NCBI GenBank assembly: GCA_964559675.1
Contig: CAZLHJ010000001.1
Span: 1-54,284 of the forward strand
Source of the DNA: Candidatus Woesearchaeota archaeon
Lineage (GTDB): Archaea; Nanobdellota; Nanobdellia; Pacearchaeales; GW2011-AR1
DNA length: 54,284 bases
Direction of reading: 5' to 3'
In this document: positions 29,798 through 47,199 of the stretch, piece by piece
Numbering within the stretch: the stretch's first letter is position 1
Layout of the letters: each line of letters starts with the position of its first letter
The notes under the pieces: model-generated
Databases searched by the model: none
Told to the model about the DNA's origin: nothing
What the model saw: only the letters and a program-made list of their open reading frames with translations
Position numbers and translations under genes: made by a program

Positions 29798-32700
29798 TTA
29801 TTTCTTCTTTTCCGATTTTATCTCCTTTGATAATGGTCCTGTAATTTGAACTAACAATCCTGGCAATCCTGTTCCAACTGGAATTGGTTGGTTCAATAAA
29901 ATATTTTCTACAACAGAGTTTAATTCATCTCTTGCACCTTGCATTGTTGCAGTGATAAATTGTTTATCAGGTGTTTCGAATGTTGCTCTTGCCAATACGG
30001 ATGCTTTGTCAGAGATAATTCCCATTCTAGTAATTCCCTTAACTATTCCAGAGGAAGTCATTGCATCAGCAACAAAGTTAATGTGCCTCTCATTAATATC
30101 TAATCCTTGAGATTCAATAACTTTCTTAATTTCATTAATTATTGTTTGTCTTGCTGCTTCTACTCCAAGTACTCCAAATACGTCGTGAATATCGTTGCTA
30201 AAGATTTTATCTTTGTTAACTCCTTTAATTGTCATTACGTCAGATAAATTGCTTCCTGAGGTGATTATTACAAAGTCGCTTCCTCTCTTGCTCACAACAA
30301 CTTGGTTGATTCCTTTAACTCCAGAGATAATAATTTCTTTTAATTTCTCTTTCAATTTGTAAAGTCCTTTGAAATCTAATTCTTCCATATGTAATGTTAA
30401 TTTCATATCGTTAGCTTTGAATTTATATCCCTTGTCATTCAACTTGTCATTAATTTTATCAATGCCTAAGTGAGTACTCTTAACTGCTTTTTGATCTAAT
30501 GTAATTTCAATCTTCTTTCCGCCAAAGTCCACTTTAATCTCTGACGCAATTTCTTTCAATTTAACTTCTCTTATCTTCTCAGCAATAACTCTTGAATTCT
30601 TTTCATCATTATGCTCTTTATCTAAGTAAATTTCCATCTGAGGCGTAGAAGGTTGTTTTCTAGCGTCGACAATTTCAATTAATCTTGGAAGTCCTTGTGT
30701 AACTTGTAATTCTGCAACTCCCGCATGGTGGAAAACGTTCAAAACCATCTGTGTTGAAGCTTCTCCAAAGCTTTGTGCAGTAATAACTCCAATCGCTTCA
30801 GCAGGACTTACCTTATTATTTTTCAAGTGAAGTTTAGAGACATCTAATCCATCGTTTCCGTATTCAAATTGAACAACTCTTTCAGACGCATCTCTTACAG
30901 TTCCGTCGTATTCTATTTTCAAATCTTGTAATGCAGAAACTAATCTTCTATAGAAGTATCCAGATTTAGGAGTTCTAAGTGCAGTATCCATCAGAGAGTC
31001 TCTTCCTGTAATAGCGTTAAAGAAGAATTCGTGAGGCTTCATACCTTCGAAGAATGAACTCTTGATAAATCCTCTTCCTTCTGGGCTCATATCTCCTTTC
31101 TTGAAATGGCTTAATGTTCTATCGTTATATCCGAATGAAATTCTTCTTCCCCATAAAGACTGCTGTCCGATTACACAACCAATCTGGGTGATATTTAACA
31201 TACTTCCAGCTGCTTTTGGAACAATCATTTTGTTAACATTTCCATCGACTGGGAAGTTTGCTTTAACAACTTCTGCAACTTCAGTTCTAACTCCGTTCAA
31301 AATCTGCATAATCTTTGTTTCTCTTGTTTCTTCAGGAGTCTTTCCAGGGATTTGCTCAAGTTCATCATTCTCATATTGAGCGATAATATCTTTAGTTGAT
31401 TTTTCAGCTTTTGTAATAATATCTGAAGTAATATCTTTTACTTTCTTTGAAACGTTTAAGTCTTGTAAGGATAGGGTATATCCTCTTCTTGTCAAATATT
31501 CTGTTCCTAATCTGAATGCTTTATTGATAGATTCAACTGCAACATCTCTTCCAAATTCTCTATCGATTACTTTTATCATTACTGAATCTTCAACTCCGAA
31601 GCTTGATTCTCCAGTGATCTTTGCAGGAACTTTCAAACTACTTCCTTTAGGAATAACTTGTCCGAATACATCTTTTCCATCTTGTTCTTTCTTTGTGTTT
31701 GAGTTTTCGATTCCAGCATTGAATAACAATAAGTCTGCTTCAGACTTTGAAATTGTTTCTTGTCCAAGAAGATAATTTCCTGTAACTGCGTCGGCAAATG
31801 TACCTACTAAGTTCATATTATTTTTACTTGAGATTATGTTTGTGTTAATATCCAATAATACTTTTGCTTCTGCTAATGCTTCTTCAGTCTGCGGACTGTG
31901 GATGTTAATTTCGTCTCCATCGAAGTCAGCGTTATATGGTGGTGCAGCAGCAGGGTGCAATCTAAATGTTCTTCCAGGAAGAACTTTAACATAATGTGCC
32001 ATTAATCCTTGCTTGTGAAGTGTAGGGTGTCTGTTTACAAGAACCATATCTCCATCTCTCAAATGTCTTTCAATCTTGTATCCAGGAACTAATTCGTTCT
32101 TTATTTCTTCTTTAAATTCAGATGTAACTTTCTTTCTCTTTCCATCAGGTCTAATAATATAGTTTGCTCCAGGATATTCTCCTCCAGATTCGATTAATTT
32201 CTTAACTTCCTCAACATTAAAGCTTGTTACACTTTCTGATACAGTAATCACTTTTGCAACTTCAATTGGGATTCCAATTTCATTAATTTTAATATACGGA
32301 TCAGGTGAAACTACTGTTCTTCCAGAGAAGTTAACTCTCTTTCCTGCTAAGTTGTTTCTAATTCTTCCTTCTTTTCCTTTAATTCTTTCAGTAATTGTCT
32401 TTAATGGTTGTCCAGATCTGTGTCTCGCAGGAGGAATTCTTGTAACATTGTTATCAAAGAATGTTGTAACATGATATTGTAATAGGTCCCACAAGTCCTC
32501 TATAATGACTTCAGGAGCTCCAGCATTAAGGTTTTCCCACAATCTTTGGTTTGCTCTTATAATATCTGATAACTTGTGTGTCAAGTCGTCTTCAGACCTT
32601 TCTCCAGATTCTAATGTAATTGAAGGTCTAACTGTAACGCTTGGAACTAATAATAATGAGATTACTGCCCATTCAGGTCTTGCCGTTTTTGGATTAATTC

Positions 32701-33235
32701 CAATTTTCTTTAATTCACTATCTTGAACTTTTACAAGTTTTTCTCTAATTTCAATTGGAGATAATCTCTTTTTACCAATCATAAAGTTGCTTGGTTTTTC
32801 AACTTTAACTTTATCAATATTTTCATTACAGTGAGGGCATTTCTTAGCATCTCTTGCTTTCTTTCCTCTTTCTGCAGGTGTTAATCCTTGTTGCTTTTCA
32901 TCACTTAATGTTAATTTTCCACAGTGTGGGCAGAAACTTCTCAAACATAATTCTACAAGTTGAATGTATTTGATATGTAAAATTGGTCTTGCAAGTTCAA
33001 TACTTCCAGGGTGTCCAGGACATTCTTTAACTCTCTTTCCACAAGTTCTACATCTAACTCCTGGATCGATTGCACCTAATCTTAAGTCCATTAATCCTCC
33101 ATCTACTGGGAATCCATCGATATCATAAAGTTCAGGAGTTACAATCTTTGCAGAACTAAGTCTCTTAATCTGCTCAGGGCTAAGCAAACTAAAGCTTAAA
33201 CTCTTCACTTGTTTTCTGAATGATTTATCTAACAT
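29798..33235 (-). CDS. rpoA: DNA-directed RNA polymerase largest subunit, fused A'+A'' (Rpo1N+Rpo1C)
   Basis: NADFDGD catalytic motif, Zn-clamp CxxC motifs, and trigger loop plus A'' C-terminal ENI..NQPIPVGTG in one ORF. Confidence 0.97.
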   Translation of the reverse strand: MLDKSFRKQVKSLSFSLLSPEQIKRLSSAKIVTPELYDIDGFPVDGGLMDLRLGAIDPGVRCRTCGKRVKECPGHPGSIELARPILHIKYIQLVELCLRSFCPHCGKLTLSDEKQQGLTPAERGKKARDAKKCPHCNENIDKVKVEKPSNFMIGKKRLSPIEIREKLVKVQDSELKKIGINPKTARPEWAVISLLLVPSVTVRPSITLESGERSEDDLTHKLSDIIRANQRLWENLNAGAPEVIIEDLWDLLQYHVTTFFDNNVTRIPPARHRSGQPLKTITERIKGKEGRIRNNLAGKRVNFSGRTVVSPDPYIKINEIGIPIEVAKVITVSESVTSFNVEEVKKLIESGGEYPGANYIIRPDGKRKKVTSEFKEEIKNELVPGYKIERHLRDGDMVLVNRHPTLHKQGLMAHYVKVLPGRTFRLHPAAAPPYNADFDGDEINIHSPQTEEALAEAKVLLDINTNIISSKNNMNLVGTFADAVTGNYLLGQETISKSEADLLLFNAGIENSNTKKEQDGKDVFGQVIPKGSSLKVPAKITGESSFGVEDSVMIKVIDREFGRDVAVESINKAFRLGTEYLTRRGYTLSLQDLNVSKKVKDITSDIITKAEKSTKDIIAQYENDELEQIPGKTPEETRETKIMQILNGVRTEVAEVVKANFPVDGNVNKMIVPKAAGSMLNITQIGCVIGQQSLWGRRISFGYNDRTLSHFKKGDMSPEGRGFIKSSFFEGMKPHEFFFNAITGRDSLMDTALRTPKSGYFYRRLVSALQDLKIEYDGTVRDASERVVQFEYGNDGLDVSKLHLKNNKVSPAEAIGVITAQSFGEASTQMVLNVFHHAGVAELQVTQGLPRLIEIVDARKQPSTPQMEIYLDKEHNDEKNSRVIAEKIREVKLKEIASEIKVDFGGKKIEITLDQKAVKSTHLGIDKINDKLNDKGYKFKANDMKLTLHMEELDFKGLYKLKEKLKEIIISGVKGINQVVVSKRGSDFVIITSGSNLSDVMTIKGVNKDKIFSNDIHDVFGVLGVEAARQTIINEIKKVIESQGLDINERHINFVADAMTSSGIVKGITRMGIISDKASVLARATFETPDKQFITATMQGARDELNSVVENILLNQPIPVGTGLPGLLVQITGPLSKEIKSEKKK

Positions 33236-41437: not shown

Positions 41438-44326
41438 TTATTCTCCGCAACCAGACCTAGTTACAGTATTACAACTCGTGCATGCAATTGAGCAATTTCC
41501 AGTTCTTTTTGCAGGACCTCCACAATGTGGGCAAGTTAATCCTTCATTAGCAAATTCTTTCAAAGATTTTTGTTCTTCGACTTCTTCTATCTCTTCCTTC
41601 TTTTCCATAGTTTTAACTTCAAGAGCAATCTTTCCTGAACTCTCTCCAAAGTTATTTAACATAAATTGAGAGACATAATCCACAATCGAACTTGCAGTCC
41701 TTATTTGACTTATCTTATCATCCATACTTCCTCCACCGACATTCTTTACGAAACCAGAAGGCTCAAATCTCTGATGTCTAAATTTATCAAACAAGTCCTT
41801 AACAGAAACTCCATATTGTAAGTTTAAACTTACAGAAGTTGCCCATGCATCAATTAATCCTCTTATTGTTGAACCTTGTTTGTGCATACTTACAAAGATT
41901 TCTCCAGGTTTGCCTTCGTCATATAATCCAACTGTAATATATCCTTCATGACCTGCAATCTCGAATTTATGTGTAAGGCTTCTTCTAGTTTGAGGCATTT
42001 TTCTTCTTTGTTGAACAAATACTTTTTCTTTCTTCTCTTCCTTATCCCACATTTCTCCTTTAGTTTTCTTTGTATTAAGTGGTTGAGATCTCTTACTATT
42101 TTCTCTATAGATAGCAACTGCTTTCAATCCTCTTTCCCAAGCATAAATGTAAGCTTCCATTATATCTTCTATACTTGAAGTTTCACTCACGTTTACAGTT
42201 TTACTAATTGCTCCAGATAAGAATGGTTGAGTTACAGCCATCATATCAATATGCGCTTTCCACTGAATACTCCTAACTCCTTTAGCAGGTTTGAATGCAC
42301 AATCAAATACTCCGAGGTGCTCTTCTAACAATTCTGGAGCGCCTTCAATAGTATCGTTCTTCTCAATATATTCACTTATCTTCATGATTTGCTCTTCATT
42401 ATATCCTAAAGTTTGCAAAGCCAATGGAACAGTTCTATTAACGATCTTCAACATTCCTCCTCCTGCTAATACCTTGTACTTAACAAGAGCTATATCTGGT
42501 TCAATTCCAGTTGTATCACAATCCATCATAAATGCAATTGTCCCAGTTGGAGCAAGAACAGTAACTTGCGCATTTCTAAATCCATATTTCTCTCCAAGCT
42601 CGAGTGCTTCAGTCCAACAATCCCAAGCAACATTAACCAAATCTCTTAGATGCTCAGGCATGACTTCAACATTTATTTCTTTAACATGTTCTCTATGCAT
42701 TCTAATTACTTCTAACATAGATTCTTTATTTTCATCATATGCTGGGAATGGACCCATTTTACTTGCGATTTGTGCTGAAGTCTTGTAAGCTTCTCCCCCC
42801 ATTATCGCAGTGATGGCTGCAGCAACAGCTCTTCCAGAATCTGAGTCGTAAGGTAAACCTATACTCATTAATAATGCTCCAAGGTTTGCGTACCCTAATC
42901 CAAGCGTTCTAAATAAGTGAGACCTTAATGCAATTTTCTCAGTTGGATAACTTGCAGCGTCAACAAATACTTCCATTGAAGTAATGAATCTTTTAACCAC
43001 TGCTTTGAATTTCTCAGCCTCAAATCCTCCTTCTTGAGTTCTAAATCTCAATAAATTAATACTAGCTAGATTACATGCAGTGTCGTCTAAAAACATATAC
43101 TCACTACAAGGATTAGATCCATTTATTCTTCCACTTGCCTTACACGTATGATATTTATTAATTATACTATCGTTCTGAATTCCAGGATCTCCACACAACC
43201 AAGTTCCTTCTGCAATTTTATGTAACATCTCTTTCGCCTTTATTGACTCACAAGTCTCTCCAGTCGTTACAAACTTAGTATTCCATAATTTATCTTCTTT
43301 AGCCGCCTTCATAAATTCGTCTGTAACTCTCACACTCATATTACTATTTTGGAAGTATACTGAAGAATATGCTTCTCCGTTCAATCCTCCACCATATCCT
43401 GCTTCAATTAGTGCCCAAGCTTTTCTTTCTTCGTTTTGCTTAGCAGTTATGAACTCCATGATATCTGGATGATCTACATTTAAGATTTCCATCTTAGCCG
43501 CTCTTCTTGTTTTTCCACCAGACTTTATTGCTCCAGCATAAGCATCATAACCTTTCATAAAACTTAACGGTCCAGAACTCCATCCTCCTCCAGTCAATCT
43601 CTCTCTTGAACTCCTAAGGGCAGACCTATTTTCCCCTGCTCCACTTCCTCCCTTGAAAAGCATTGCCTCTGCTTTTTGTAATTCCATAATGCTCTCCATA
43701 GAATCTTCAACACCTAAAATGAAACAAGCAGAACATTGTGGACTATCTTCATTCTTCTCTGTTAATCTTACCTTATTTGCAACTGGATCCCACTTATATG
43801 GAGAAACTCCTCCTGCATTAGGATGATATTTCTGTATTCCTGCATTGAACCAAACAGGAGAGTTGAAAACACCGAGCTGATTTAAATTGATGGCTGCAAT
43901 TTCATCTCTCAAAACTCTCGCTTTGCTTTCATCAAAGTAGCCCTGCTTTATCGACTGCCTTTCAATGAAATCCGCAACTCTCCCGATAATGTGTTTAACA
44001 GAGCTTTCTCTCTCTCCCTTTTGAAGATTACCCCAAAAATATTTACTAGCAACAACTTTTAATGCAAGAGTACTCCAAAATGAAGGTTTTTCAACATCTT
44101 TTTGAACATAAATAACTTTTCCAACATCATCACTCACCTTAACTTCTTCTTTTACCCAAGTAATCTTATTTCCATACATATCAAAATCAAAAGCATTTTT
44201 TTCTGGATAGCTAAAGACTCGTTCAACATTTAATTGAACTCCTGAATTCACTTCACTAGAAACTTGTCTCGACTTAAATTCAGATTCTTCATTTTCTCTG
44301 TTTTCGTTAAATCCGTTTATTTCCAT
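41438..44326 (-). CDS. nrdJ: class II (adenosylcobalamin-dependent) ribonucleotide reductase with C-terminal TSCPD and Zn-ribbon region
   Basis: QCSACFI, GGKTRRAAKM, SNPCSEY..DDTACNLAS, APTGTI, QPFLSGAISKTVN, R.S.THKF.IAG.EGYI, terminal CxxC...CxxC. Confidence 0.97.
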   Translation of the reverse strand: MEINGFNENRENEESEFKSRQVSSEVNSGVQLNVERVFSYPEKNAFDFDMYGNKITWVKEEVKVSDDVGKVIYVQKDVEKPSFWSTLALKVVASKYFWGNLQKGERESSVKHIIGRVADFIERQSIKQGYFDESKARVLRDEIAAINLNQLGVFNSPVWFNAGIQKYHPNAGGVSPYKWDPVANKVRLTEKNEDSPQCSACFILGVEDSMESIMELQKAEAMLFKGGSGAGENRSALRSSRERLTGGGWSSGPLSFMKGYDAYAGAIKSGGKTRRAAKMEILNVDHPDIMEFITAKQNEERKAWALIEAGYGGGLNGEAYSSVYFQNSNMSVRVTDEFMKAAKEDKLWNTKFVTTGETCESIKAKEMLHKIAEGTWLCGDPGIQNDSIINKYHTCKASGRINGSNPCSEYMFLDDTACNLASINLLRFRTQEGGFEAEKFKAVVKRFITSMEVFVDAASYPTEKIALRSHLFRTLGLGYANLGALLMSIGLPYDSDSGRAVAAAITAIMGGEAYKTSAQIASKMGPFPAYDENKESMLEVIRMHREHVKEINVEVMPEHLRDLVNVAWDCWTEALELGEKYGFRNAQVTVLAPTGTIAFMMDCDTTGIEPDIALVKYKVLAGGGMLKIVNRTVPLALQTLGYNEEQIMKISEYIEKNDTIEGAPELLEEHLGVFDCAFKPAKGVRSIQWKAHIDMMAVTQPFLSGAISKTVNVSETSSIEDIMEAYIYAWERGLKAVAIYRENSKRSQPLNTKKTKGEMWDKEEKKEKVFVQQRRKMPQTRRSLTHKFEIAGHEGYITVGLYDEGKPGEIFVSMHKQGSTIRGLIDAWATSVSLNLQYGVSVKDLFDKFRHQRFEPSGFVKNVGGGSMDDKISQIRTASSIVDYVSQFMLNNFGESSGKIALEVKTMEKKEEIEEVEEQKSLKEFANEGLTCPHCGGPAKRTGNCSIACTSCNTVTRSGCGE

Positions 44327-44769
44327 TATTTTGTTATTAACTCCTTTATTTCATCTTTGAAATCTTGAATGTCTGTGAAGTCCTTGTAAACACTTGCAAA
44401 TCTTATGTATGCAATCTTATCAAGTCTCTTCAATTCCTTAGAGGCAAGTTCCCCAATATATATTGACTGAACTTCTTTCCCTCTTTTTTTCAACTTTTCT
44501 TCAATTCGAGTAATCATTTGATCGATTTGCTCGATACTCACAGGCCTCTTTTCACAAGCCCTCATCATCCCTTTCTTTATTTTTTCTTTATTGAAATCTT
44601 CTCTCCTGCCATCTTTTTTCACAACTCTCAAGTTTGCTTCTTCAAGCTCCTCAAGAGTGTTAAATCTTTTTTGGCATTTGAGACACTCTCTTCTCCTCCT
44701 TGTACGTCCACCAAAGTCTCTCTTATCTATTACTTTCGTGTCCTCATGGAGGCAGTAAGGGCATAACAT
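44326..44769 (-). CDS. nrdR: transcriptional repressor NrdR
   Basis: MLCPYC...TKVIDKR..RRRRECLKC.KRFNTLE, ATP-cone VVKKDGRREDF, LD.IAYIRFASVYKDF. Confidence 0.97.
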   Translation of the reverse strand: MLCPYCLHEDTKVIDKRDFGGRTRRRRECLKCQKRFNTLEELEEANLRVVKKDGRREDFNKEKIKKGMMRACEKRPVSIEQIDQMITRIEEKLKKRGKEVQSIYIGELASKELKRLDKIAYIRFASVYKDFTDIQDFKDEIKELITK

Positions 44770-44803
44770 CTCTTTTTTACCATTGCTTTCTTCAAGCTTT
44801 CAA

Positions 44804-44850
44804 CCACAATATCTTGTGTTATTTTGTGTATTCTACACAACAAATTGTGT
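44804..44850. promoter_or_regulatory. tandem NrdR boxes (44804-44819 and 44835-44850)
   Basis: CCACAATATCTTGTGT and ACACAACAAATTGTGT each match the acaCwAtATaTwGtgt consensus at 14/16; starts are 31 bp apart. Confidence 0.85.
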
Positions 44851-44875
44851 TTATGAAAACTCTAACTTATTTTTA

Positions 44876-44883
44876 TATTTAAA
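44876..44883 (-). promoter_or_regulatory. archaeal BRE/TATA promoter of nrdR-nrdJ
   Basis: Minus strand AAAAACA-TTTAAATA; predicted start site near 44851, abutting the first NrdR box. Confidence 0.6.
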
Positions 44884-45021
44884 TGTTTTTGAAATTTATA
44901 TTTTATCGTCGATAGTTTTATATTTGTCACTCAAGAAGAAAAAAAATTAAAGTTCAGTTAATACAATTTCACGAGATAAAAAAGACGTTAGCTTTATAAA
45001 TAACAGCGGACTATACTAATT

Positions 45022-45288
45022 ATGGCATTAGAATCATTCGCAAATTCTCTCCCAATTCCATTATGGGCTTTTATTTTAATCGCTATCTGGGAATTGGTAT
45101 GGAAAGGTTTAGCCCTATGGAAATCTGCTAGATTATATCATCCTATTTGGTTCGTCGCCATGCTAGTAATTAACACATTCGGAATCTTACCAATTTTATA
45201 CATTTTTGTATTCTCAGAGATGCTAAGATCAAAAGAGAAAAACGTAAAGCCAAGAAGTTCTAAAGTCTCTAAGAAGAAACGAAGATAA
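45022..45288 (+). CDS. DUF5652-family membrane protein
   Basis: IWELVWKGLALWKSAR...WFVAMLVINTFGILPILY. Confidence 0.88.
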   Translation: MALESFANSLPIPLWAFILIAIWELVWKGLALWKSARLYHPIWFVAMLVINTFGILPILYIFVFSEMLRSKEKNVKPRSSKVSKKKRR

Positions 45289-47199
45289 TTACTTATTTCT
45301 TTCAGTTATATCATAAATCAATTCAAGTTCAGGAATTAATACTCTGCTCCAAGTTTCAAACTTATCATATGAAAGTTTTCTACTTCCAAATTCTTTAGGA
45401 GAAAACATTCCCAATCCAGTTATAGAGCTTTCATTTCCACGAACTTCTCCATCAACCATTACTCCATAAACCAAACCAAAGTGAACTCTATCAACAGGTT
45501 TATCTTCTGCAAAAAGAGTGCCAATTAATTTAGGTTCTGTAATGTAATTTGCTCTTACTTCTTCACATCTTTCTCTATCTAATGCTTTTCTAACAAGTCC
45601 TTCTGGAGAGAAATCCTCTCTATTAATATGTCCCCCAATACCAATAGAGAACTTTCCAAATAATCTTTCATCTCCATAATCTTGGATGTTCTTTGCTCTT
45701 ACATAAGTGAATACCTGACCTTCTTCGTTAAAAATTAACAAATATGGGATTGGTTGCAAAATTAATCCATCTTCCTCACAATCATATCTAGAGTGGAAAA
45801 ATCCATTCGTATTTATTTCATCAACAAGTTTTTTAGCTTTTACAGGATCTATTAAATCAAAACTTGCTATACCTTTTCTTCCAGATCCAAAACTCCTTAA
45901 AACATTAGCATCATGAACTAAAACTTCTCTATCCAATTTTCCATATTCTTTTGCCGCTTTTGCATAATCAAATTGTTTGAAATGTTTAGATGTCTTCGGT
46001 CCAAGTTGCCCTTGATAATTACTTCCTATAGATCCACCATATACTTTATCTGGCTCTTCAACAGTTCTAAACAATTCTAATGCACTAAATGGAAATCTTC
46101 CATGTCTAATTGAAATCCCTCCAGATTCTTGGAAAACTACTTCCCCAACTAAATCTCCTTGGAAACCTGAATCGACGAAACCGGCTTCATCAAAAGTACC
46201 TCTAATTCCTTTTCCATAATGTCTTCTTAACTCGGCACTCAAATGACTCGGTATTCTTAATACATCCGCAGAGGCAAGAAGATATCTCTCTCCAGAAAAG
46301 AATTTGACTCCCTTATTATCTTTAGAAGCTGGAACAGGTTCAAAAAAATCTTCAGGACGATAATTTCCAATTCTTGAAACATCGATCGGTTCAGGATTAT
46401 TTTTCGCCCTTAATGCAATTATTCCATTTGTGTTTCTTCCAACTAAATCGAATTCTAATCCAAGACCATCATCAGTTACAGAAATATCTTCAATAGGAAT
46501 CAAATCTCCATCATCATCTCTTCTAAACAATAATGGATTTCTTTTATGCTCTTCTAAAATTTCTCTTTGACTTAAAGAAGAATCTTGTCCACGTATAAAT
46601 CTAATTTGATCTAATGTATCTCCCGGTCTAATAACTAAATTAAATGCACCTGGTTGTATTAATAACCACGATTGAGTTAATTTTCCAGCACAATATCTAC
46701 TATCAATTTCATCAGTACAAGGATTATAATCTGCAATCAATCTTGTTATTGGAAATAATCTTCCAGTACTGCTTTTAGGAGAATTCTTTATTCTCTCTCC
46801 AGGAAGAAGAGTAAATCTCTCTTGAATTGGAACCAAATAACTAAAACCTCTTTTTATTTCAAATCCTTCACTAATATCAATTTTTTGCCTCTGGCTTTTA
46901 GGAAGCTCAAGAACCGCACGATAAACGGTTTTATCTTGCCCAGGGGTTAATACACTAGTCTGTTCACTATCTAATATAAAAGCTTCATCAGCTAAAGAAA
47001 CGTCAAATGACTCAGGTTGAATTCTTTTCTCCAAATCAATATCTTTAAACCATCCCTTTCTAAATCTTCCATTCAAATCGTCACTTTCATGCCTACCGAG
47101 ATTCCCAAAATTTCCTTTAATTAATCCATCAACTATTTTATCTCTTAAATTCTGAGAAACTAGCGTTCCTCCTCTCTCGCTTTCCTCAACTCTAACCAT
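45289..47199 (-). CDS. dCTP deaminase-family (duplicated DCD domains) protein fused to a C-terminal Nudix-family domain
   Basis: IQPESFDV, SPKSSTGRL and AGFVDSGF.G (DCD); CEED...QPIPY, DERLFGKFSIGIGGHIN, RE..EE and VHFGLV (YmaB/COG4112-type Nudix). Confidence 0.8.
   Translation of the reverse strand: MVRVEESERGGTLVSQNLRDKIVDGLIKGNFGNLGRHESDDLNGRFRKGWFKDIDLEKRIQPESFDVSLADEAFILDSEQTSVLTPGQDKTVYRAVLELPKSQRQKIDISEGFEIKRGFSYLVPIQERFTLLPGERIKNSPKSSTGRLFPITRLIADYNPCTDEIDSRYCAGKLTQSWLLIQPGAFNLVIRPGDTLDQIRFIRGQDSSLSQREILEEHKRNPLLFRRDDDGDLIPIEDISVTDDGLGLEFDLVGRNTNGIIALRAKNNPEPIDVSRIGNYRPEDFFEPVPASKDNKGVKFFSGERYLLASADVLRIPSHLSAELRRHYGKGIRGTFDEAGFVDSGFQGDLVGEVVFQESGGISIRHGRFPFSALELFRTVEEPDKVYGGSIGSNYQGQLGPKTSKHFKQFDYAKAAKEYGKLDREVLVHDANVLRSFGSGRKGIASFDLIDPVKAKKLVDEINTNGFFHSRYDCEEDGLILQPIPYLLIFNEEGQVFTYVRAKNIQDYGDERLFGKFSIGIGGHINREDFSPEGLVRKALDRERCEEVRANYITEPKLIGTLFAEDKPVDRVHFGLVYGVMVDGEVRGNESSITGLGMFSPKEFGSRKLSYDKFETWSRVLIPELELIYDITERNK

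What the first reader, a model, noticed from the sequence alone, without database searches (positions are those of the whole stretch)
44326..44883. Bacterial NrdR operator pair directly downstream of an archaeal TATA promoter
Seen in sequence: two 16-bp NrdR-box-like palindromes, each 14/16 to consensus and 31 bp apart start-to-start, lie directly downstream of a BRE-TATA (44876-44883) and upstream of nrdR-nrdJ. Established: NrdR is a bacterial ATP-cone repressor that binds tandem boxes about 31-32 bp (three helical turns) apart. Inference: a complete bacterial dNTP-sensing, autoregulated switch has been adapted to repress TBP/TFB/Rpo-type initiation by covering the start site.
Basis: partly seen in the sequence, partly recalled or inferred. 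Interest (0 to 1): 0.7.

Follow-up and report, generated by a model that had tools for sequence, protein, structure and literature searches.

The report
NrdR operator on an archaeal promoter
A tiny DPANN archaeon controls its only ribonucleotide reductase operon with the NrdR repressor, whose two binding boxes sit just after a normal archaeal TATA promoter; the site is real and conserved, but it is one more example of a system already known to occur in archaea.

Summary
Two 16-bp NrdR boxes lie at 44835-44850 and 44804-44819. Each matches 14/16 of the consensus, and they are 31 bp apart start to start. They lie 25 nt downstream of BRE/TTTAAATA (44883-44876, minus strand) and upstream of an overlapping nrdR-nrdJ operon. 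This is the only such box pair in the 791-kb genome, and nrdJ is its only RNR.

The contig is truly archaeal (RpoB, RpoA, aEF-2, EF-1alpha) and Pacearchaeota-like.

In this genome TTTAWATA is followed by an ATG after exactly 21-22 nt in 70 of 156 cases, which indicates leaderless mRNAs. That geometry predicts the nrdR start at about 44854, so the boxes cover +5..+20 and +36..+51.

NrdR is present in 314 of 401 genomes of the phylum. In 82 of 144 upstream regions a box pair follows a TATA box at gaps of about 3-7, 15-18, 23-28 or 36-38 nt. CPR bacteria instead place a TTGAC -35 element against box 1.

Most likely mechanism (inferred, not tested): dATP/ATP-loaded NrdR blocks RNA polymerase access after TBP/TFB have bound.

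NrdR in archaea is already published (22% of archaeal genomes), so this is a new member of a known kind.

The parts
44884..44889 (-). BRE-like A-rich stretch (AAAACA) directly upstream of the TATA box
   Evidence: Matches the genome's own promoter profile, which has A at -5/-4/-3 in 54/71/84% of 59 leaderless promoters.
44876..44883 (-). TATA box TTTAAATA of the nrdR-nrdJ promoter
   Evidence: Sequence. Perfect TTTAWATA is conserved upstream of box 1 in 53 of 82 related loci. Genome-wide, TTTAWATA sits 21-22 nt before an ATG in 70 of 156 cases.
44854..44854 (-). Predicted transcription start (A after C), +/-2 nt; not measured
   Evidence: This is the 22nd nt after the TATA box, by the leaderless-gene calibration of this genome. 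It is an inference.
44835..44850 (-). NrdR box 1 (promoter-proximal), ACACAATTTGTTGTGT, predicted +5..+20
44820..44834 (-). 15-nt linker between the boxes; sequence not conserved, length conserved (15-16 nt)
   Evidence: among the 77 high-scoring box pairs the start-to-start spacing is 31 in 25 loci and 32 in 45.
44804..44819 (-). NrdR box 2, ACACAAGATATTGTGG, predicted +36..+51
44770..44853 (-). Predicted leader of about 85 nt, made almost wholly of the operator; A/G-rich AAAAAAGAG directly before the ATG
   Evidence: The length follows from the predicted start site.
44326..44769 (-). nrdR, 147 aa: Zn ribbon (C3, C6, C29, C32) plus ATP-cone
   Evidence: PF22811 55 bits and PF03477 72 bits; TIGR00244 180.5 bits; 143 bits to E. 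coli NrdR 9FVR.
41438..44326 (-). nrdJ, class II (B12-dependent) ribonucleotide reductase, 962 aa; its start overlaps the nrdR stop (TAATG); the only RNR in the genome
   Evidence: PF02867 446 bits and PF08471; whole-genome searches.
44993..45000 (+). Context: TATA-like TTTATAAA of the divergent leaderless DUF5652 gene (ATG at 45022, 21 nt downstream)
   Evidence: Sequence; geometry; PF18893.

Best explanation
This is a working NrdR operator built into an archaeal BRE/TATA promoter. TBP and TFB bind TTTAAATA (44883-44876), and transcription should start near 44854.

When dATP rises relative to ATP, an NrdR tetramer loaded with ATP plus dATP binds the two boxes on one face of the DNA, three helical turns apart, at +5..+20 and +36..+51. 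It kinks the DNA there and denies RNA polymerase the DNA just downstream of the start site. Polymerase recruitment, opening or clearance then fails, although TBP and TFB can still bind. When dATP is low, ATP-only NrdR forms oligomers that do not bind DNA, and the nrdR-nrdJ mRNA is made.

Because nrdR is the first gene, the loop is autoregulated, and it controls the cell's only ribonucleotide reductase.

Shown here: the parts, their rarity, their conservation and their fixed position relative to TATA. Inferred from bacterial NrdR work: binding, the nucleotide switch and the step that is blocked.
For: - Host: the contig is archaeal (RpoB, RpoA'/A'', NusA-like, uS12, aEF-2, EF-1alpha). The closest named NrdRs come from Pacearchaeota/Nanoarchaeota.
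- Protein: full NrdR with K12, D15, R17, RRRR(24-27) and R35, equivalent to the DNA-contact residues of S. coelicolor and E. coli NrdR.
- Rarity: this is the only tandem box pair in the genome, and it stands in front of the only RNR.
- Spread: NrdR is present in 33/41 close relatives and 314/401 genomes of the phylum.
- Conservation: a high-scoring box pair occurs in 82/144 upstream regions, against a chance rate of about 0.002 per region. The linker varies in sequence while the spacing stays at 31-32.
- Position: forward TATA boxes pile up 0-39 nt upstream of box 1 and are almost absent inside or after the operator.
- Bacterial control: CPR nrdR loci carry the same boxes but have TTGAC abutting box 1 in 8/11 loci and no perfect TATA.
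- Calibration: in this genome TATA-21/22 nt-ATG occurs in 70/156 cases.
- Operon: nrdR is directly followed by an RNR gene in nearly all relatives.
Against: - There are no binding, footprint or expression data.
- In this window box 1 begins about 4 nt after the predicted start, so a block of elongation or promoter escape fits as well as a block of recruitment.
- 62 of 144 related upstream regions gave no high-scoring pair within 300 nt under my spacing limits.
- The nucleotide switch is extrapolated from two bacterial proteins.
Confidence: 0.8

Rival explanations
1. Same operator and repressor, but the blocked step differs. NrdR bound at +5..+51 lets the pre-initiation complex form and acts as a roadblock to promoter escape or early elongation.
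For: In this window and most of its family, box 1 lies wholly downstream of the predicted start (gap 23-28 nt). A few loci have a gap of 36-38 nt, which is probably beyond the polymerase footprint.
Against: Across families the commonest register (gap 15-18) puts box 1 over the start site, and the 3-7 register puts it between TATA and the start. Those positions point to interference with polymerase loading. Register jumps within single families suggest one mechanism that tolerates all positions.
Confidence: 0.15
2. The palindromes act in the RNA. The transcribed boxes fold into a leader hairpin that affects mRNA stability or translation, and NrdR binding to DNA is secondary.
For: The predicted 88-nt leader folds at -16 kcal/mol, z = -2.95 against shuffles, by pairing box 1 with box 2.
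Against: Two similar palindromes must pair in any fold. In many families box 1 lies partly or wholly upstream of the predicted start and so is not transcribed (gaps 3-18). Many box 1 copies break hairpin symmetry while keeping C4/G13. The same boxes occur in bacterial promoters, where they overlap the -35 element.
Confidence: 0.03
3. The boxes are an inert relic carried in with a transferred nrdR-RNR cassette and no longer regulate anything in the archaeal host.
For: NrdR cassettes have moved from bacteria to archaea before (haloarchaeal nrdR-nrdAB; PMC3019208).
Against: Boxes, spacing and placement after TATA are kept across at least 37 families although the flanks and linker have diverged, and the NrdR tree follows the families. 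No bacterial -35 element remains next to the boxes (1 of 82 loci).
Confidence: 0.02

Closest known systems
Streptomyces coelicolor nrdRJ operon with its NrdR operator (cryo-EM 7P3F; PMC9110341)
   Same: Same gene order (nrdR, then a class II RNR), autoregulation, two 16-bp boxes with a 15-nt linker, one box with a middle AA, and conserved D15/R17/RRRR in the protein.
   Different: The host is an archaeon. The operator follows a BRE/TATA promoter instead of overlapping sigma-70 -35/-10 elements. The protein is about 40-45% identical to the solved bacterial NrdRs, read from the E. coli alignment; it scores 143 bits to E. coli NrdR and 103 bits to S. coelicolor NrdR.
Haloarchaeal nrdR-nrdA-nrdB / nrdR-nrdB-nrdA operons (PMC3019208)
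   Same: NrdR is encoded in an archaeon as the first gene of an RNR operon.
   Different: Those are class I cassettes attributed to recent transfer from bacteria, some on plasmids. Here NrdR is near-universal in a whole phylum and sits with class II (or, in relatives, other) RNRs. I did not examine the haloarchaeal operators.
NrdR operators of CPR bacteria (Woesebacteria relatives), examined here as a control
   Same: Same box pair and 31-32 bp spacing upstream of nrdR, in similarly small, AT-rich genomes.
   Different: In CPR a TTGAC -35 element abuts box 1 (8/11 loci) and there is no perfect TATA. In the archaea a perfect TATA is present in 53/82 loci and TTGAC in 1/82.
Archaeal repressors that bind just downstream of TATA and block polymerase recruitment (MDR1 of Archaeoglobus, LrpA and Phr of Pyrococcus); recalled from my own knowledge, not checked here
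   Same: The operator sits between TATA and, or just beyond, the start site and never over BRE/TATA.
   Different: Those are winged-helix or Lrp-type proteins with other effectors. NrdR is a Zn-ribbon/ATP-cone tetramer that reads dATP/ATP.

Membership tests
NrdR protein (TIGR00244) | N-terminal Zn ribbon with two CxxC motifs | tested here: met
   C3-x2-C6 and C29-x2-C32; PF22811 55.4 bits against a cut-off of 27.2.
NrdR protein (TIGR00244) | ATP-cone domain following the ribbon | tested here: met
   PF03477 72.2 bits, residues 48-133.
NrdR protein (TIGR00244) | Full-length equivalog score above the curated cut-off | tested here: met
   180.5 bits against 124.65.
NrdR protein (TIGR00244) | DNA-reading residues D15 and R17 and backbone-contacting arginines (RRRR motif, R37 equivalent) | tested here: met
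   D15, R17, R24-R27 and R35 are aligned to E. coli NrdR. Their roles are taken from PMC9110341.
NrdR protein (TIGR00244) | ATP/dATP-dependent change of oligomer and DNA binding | not testable with these tools
   Needs the purified protein.
NrdR operator | Two partially palindromic 16-bp boxes with conserved C4, A6, A8, T9, T11 and G13 | tested here: met
   6/6 and 5/6 key positions, and 14/16 to the consensus in each box (criteria from PMC13584703).
NrdR operator | Linker of 15-16 bp (three helical turns start to start) | tested here: met
   15-bp linker here. Among the 77 high-scoring pairs of relatives the spacing is 31 in 25 loci and 32 in 45.
NrdR operator | Located in the promoter region of an RNR operon | tested here: met
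   It lies upstream of nrdR-nrdJ, 25 nt after the TATA box.
NrdR operator | Bound by NrdR, with repression of transcription | not testable with these tools
Archaeal BRE/TATA promoter | TATA box with an A-rich BRE at a fixed distance from the start site | tested here: met
   TTTAAATA with AAA at -5..-3. The genome's own promoters show TATA-21/22 nt-ATG in 70/156 cases.
Archaeal BRE/TATA promoter | Mapped transcription start | not tested
   Predicted at 44854 +/-2 only.

The most novel reading that the evidence does not exclude
In Nanoarchaeota the NrdR operator may be allowed only at discrete helical registers after the TATA box. The gaps from TATA end to box 1 cluster at about 3-7, 15-18, 23-28 and 36-38 nt, roughly one turn apart, and never overlap BRE/TATA.

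This would mean the NrdR tetramer must sit on a particular face of the DNA relative to the TBP/TFB-bent promoter. It would give a geometric rule for how one repressor, used by both domains of life, shuts off an archaeal (Pol II-like) polymerase. NrdR would then be an old, vertically kept regulator of this phylum rather than a sporadic bacterial import.
Probability: 0.4. Interest if true: 0.55.

Novelty: new member of a known kind. Interest (0 to 1): 0.35.

Why it matters
NrdR is studied almost only in bacteria, partly as an antibacterial target. These data show that in one large archaeal phylum it is as common as in bacteria: 78% of sampled genomes here, against the published 77% of bacterial genomes. 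They also show that the same operator has been fitted to two unrelated promoter types, TTGAC -35 in CPR bacteria and BRE/TATA in DPANN archaea.

That makes the system a clean natural case for asking how one repressor stops both a bacterial and a eukaryote-like transcription machine. It also offers a simple, testable promoter for organisms that cannot yet be grown. For this window alone the result is ordinary, because the locus is a typical member of its lineage.

Tried and rejected
- The 2026 MMBR review on NrdR (PMC13602944), which may already describe archaeal operators, is not held. My novelty rating is therefore cautious.
- The published loose regex for box pairs matches this site, but it also matches about 84 places in this AT-rich genome, so it does not discriminate here. 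I used consensus mismatches and a weighted score instead.
- Search for further regulon members: the other top-scoring pairs (C2:53631, C1:105155, C5:20555) and the lone third box (C6:16687) lie inside coding regions and were dismissed as chance.
- A second archaeal lineage: the 'Methanosarcinales' hit (L023) turned out to belong to the same phylum, because its relatives are the same genomes.
- Donor lineage: the tree of 50 archaeal, 16 CPR and one E. coli NrdR separates CPR as one clade (98) and groups the archaeal sequences by family, but the rooting is weak and bacterial sampling is far too thin to name a donor.
- Rfam found no RNA element in the region.
Full report
**What is there.**
- On the minus strand the window reads: A-rich BRE, TTTAAATA (44883-44876), 25 nt, ACACAATTTGTTGTGT (box 1, 44850-44835), 15 nt, ACACAAGATATTGTGG (box 2, 44819-44804), 34 nt, then the ATG of nrdR at 44769.
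- Each box has 2 mismatches to ACACWATATATWGTGT, and the starts are 31 bp apart.
- nrdR (147 aa) matches the NrdR Zn ribbon and the ATP-cone and scores 180.5 bits on TIGR00244 against a cut-off of 124.65.
- Its stop overlaps the start of a 962-aa class II reductase gene, nrdJ (TAATG).

**Is it chance?** No.
- The assembled genome (790,830 bp, 32% G+C) has only three boxes with <=2 mismatches. Two of them are these, and they form the only tandem pair.
- With a looser weighted score this site is still the best pair. The next candidates and the third box all lie inside coding regions.
- The genome has no class III reductase and only this one class I/II-type gene. The only operator therefore stands before the only RNR.

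**Is the host archaeal?** Yes.
- The same contig carries archaeal RpoB, RpoA'/A'', a NusA-like factor, uS12, aEF-2, EF-1alpha and archaeal DnaG.
- The closest named NrdR proteins are from Candidatus Pacearchaeota and Nanoarchaeota MAGs at 65-75% identity.

**Is the TATA box a real promoter, and where is the start?**
- In this genome 54 of 156 TTTAWATA sites that precede an ORF lie exactly 21 nt before the ATG, and 16 lie 22 nt before it. This is the signature of leaderless mRNAs.
- It shows that TTTAWATA is the working promoter element and that transcription starts about 22 nt after it.
- These promoters have A at -5..-3 before the TATA box, as the nrdR promoter does.
- By this rule the nrdR start is at about 44854 (an A after a C). 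Box 1 is then +5..+20, box 2 is +36..+51, and the leader is about 85 nt.
- The divergent DUF5652 gene follows the same rule: TTTATAAA at 44993-45000, 21 nt, then ATG at 45022.

**Conservation.**
- NrdR is in 33 of 41 genomes of the same family or order and in 314 of 401 high-quality genomes sampled across the phylum.
- nrdR is directly followed by an RNR gene in nearly all relatives, although the RNR type varies.
- I analysed 144 distinct upstream regions. Of these, 82 have a high-scoring box pair within 300 nt, against a chance rate of about 0.002 per region, with start-to-start spacing of 31 or 32 and unconserved linkers.
- In 53 of those 82 a perfect TTTAWATA lies within 45 nt upstream of box 1, and most of the rest have a one-mismatch variant.
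- An unbiased scan shows forward TATA boxes piling up 0-39 nt upstream of box 1 and almost none inside or after the operator.

**A bacterial control.**
- In 16 nrdR loci of CPR bacteria (Woesebacteria and relatives, equally small and AT-rich) the same box pair is present.
- There box 1 is abutted by TTGAC, a -35 element, in 8 of 11 loci with a pair, and none has a perfect TATA.
- In the archaea only 1 of 82 loci has TTGAC there.
- The same operator is thus embedded in two different promoter types. This supports the idea that it has been fitted to archaeal initiation.

**Registers.**
- The gap from TATA end to box 1 is not spread evenly. It clusters at 3-7, 15-18 (mode 16), 23-28 (mode 26, this window's family) and 36-38 nt.
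- A Rayleigh test at a period of 10.5 gives R = 0.68 for 51 loci with a perfect TATA. After collapsing by family R is 0.39-0.46, with p about 2e-4 to 6e-3.
- Single families jump between registers: own family 6, 15-16, 23-28 and 36; another family 17, 26 and 36-38.
- This suggests a helical-phase rule. I treat it as suggestive, because the loci are related and the TATA choice is computational.

**Protein.**
- Aligned to E. coli NrdR (9FVR, 143 bits), the archaeal protein keeps K12, D15, R17, the RRRR motif and the R37 equivalent.
- In S. coelicolor NrdR, D15 and R17 read the conserved G-C pairs and the arginines hold the backbone (PMC9110341).

**Mechanism.**
- The most likely reading is bacterial NrdR logic applied to an archaeal promoter. 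ATP plus dATP-loaded tetramers bind both boxes, kink the DNA just after the start site and keep RNA polymerase off. TBP/TFB binding at BRE/TATA is left untouched, because the boxes never overlap those elements.
- A block of promoter escape is a close variant that I cannot exclude for this window.
- An RNA-level role for the leader hairpin (-16 kcal/mol) is unlikely, because in many families box 1 is not transcribed.

**Origin.**
- In a tree of 67 NrdRs the CPR sequences form one clade (98), and the archaeal ones group by family. The window's protein sits with Pacearchaeota sequences (99).
- Together with the 78% prevalence, this points to long vertical inheritance within the phylum. No donor can be named.
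- The 'Methanosarcinales' record that matched (L023) belongs to the same phylum by its relatives.

**Novelty.**
- The literature already states that NrdR occurs in some archaea (PMC9110341), in 22% of archaeal genomes (PMC13584703), that 'a few archaeal RNRs' are controlled by it (PMC12051234), and that haloarchaea carry nrdR-nrdAB cassettes (PMC3019208).
- NCBI already names these Pacearchaeota proteins NrdR.
- No held paper links NrdR with DPANN or with TATA boxes, but the 2026 review is not held.
- Earlier notes of this scan describe the same arrangement in many DPANN genomes.
- The locus is therefore a typical new member of a known kind. The promoter geometry is the modestly new part.

Noticed in passing
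window 29798-33235 (-): RNA polymerase subunit A appears as one 1145-aa open frame matching both A' (residues 5-541 and beyond) and A'' (804-1124). In most archaea these are two genes, so this is a possible fused rpoA.
   Followed up: no
whole genome (G000): The promoter geometry is very sharp: TTTAWATA, then exactly 21 nt, then ATG in 54 of 156 cases (22 nt in 16). This implies that a large share of the genes have leaderless mRNAs.
   Followed up: partly
related genomes, e.g. G195:C36:2808-3242, G131:C12:13958-14395, G373:C8:54775-55212: In one family of the phylum the NrdR match lies at the start of open frames of 780-854 aa, that is, NrdR fused to a large protein, probably the reductase itself. 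Box pairs are present upstream (L096, L110, L117).
   Followed up: partly
L023 (CAYNLP010000002.1): The record is titled 'uncultured Methanosarcinales archaeon', but its genome is about 1 Mb and its nearest genomes are the same Nanoarchaeota genomes found from the window. It is probably mislabelled.
   Followed up: partly
window 45289-47199 (-): A 636-aa protein with duplicated dCTP-deaminase-like domains and a C-terminal extension lies next to the RNR operon, so nucleotide-metabolism genes are clustered here. No NrdR box lies in front of it.
   Followed up: no
genome contig C6:16687-16702: A lone box with 2 mismatches (ACATTATCTATTGTGT) lies 21 nt inside an 840-aa ORF that itself has TTTAAAAA-21 nt-ATG. 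It has no partner box, so it is probably chance.
   Followed up: partly
CPR loci, e.g. G438:C49:11822-12259, G453:C1:397039-397446: Several CPR genomes carry a second, divergent NrdR-like gene (82-96 bits, below the family cut-off) besides the regular one.
   Followed up: no
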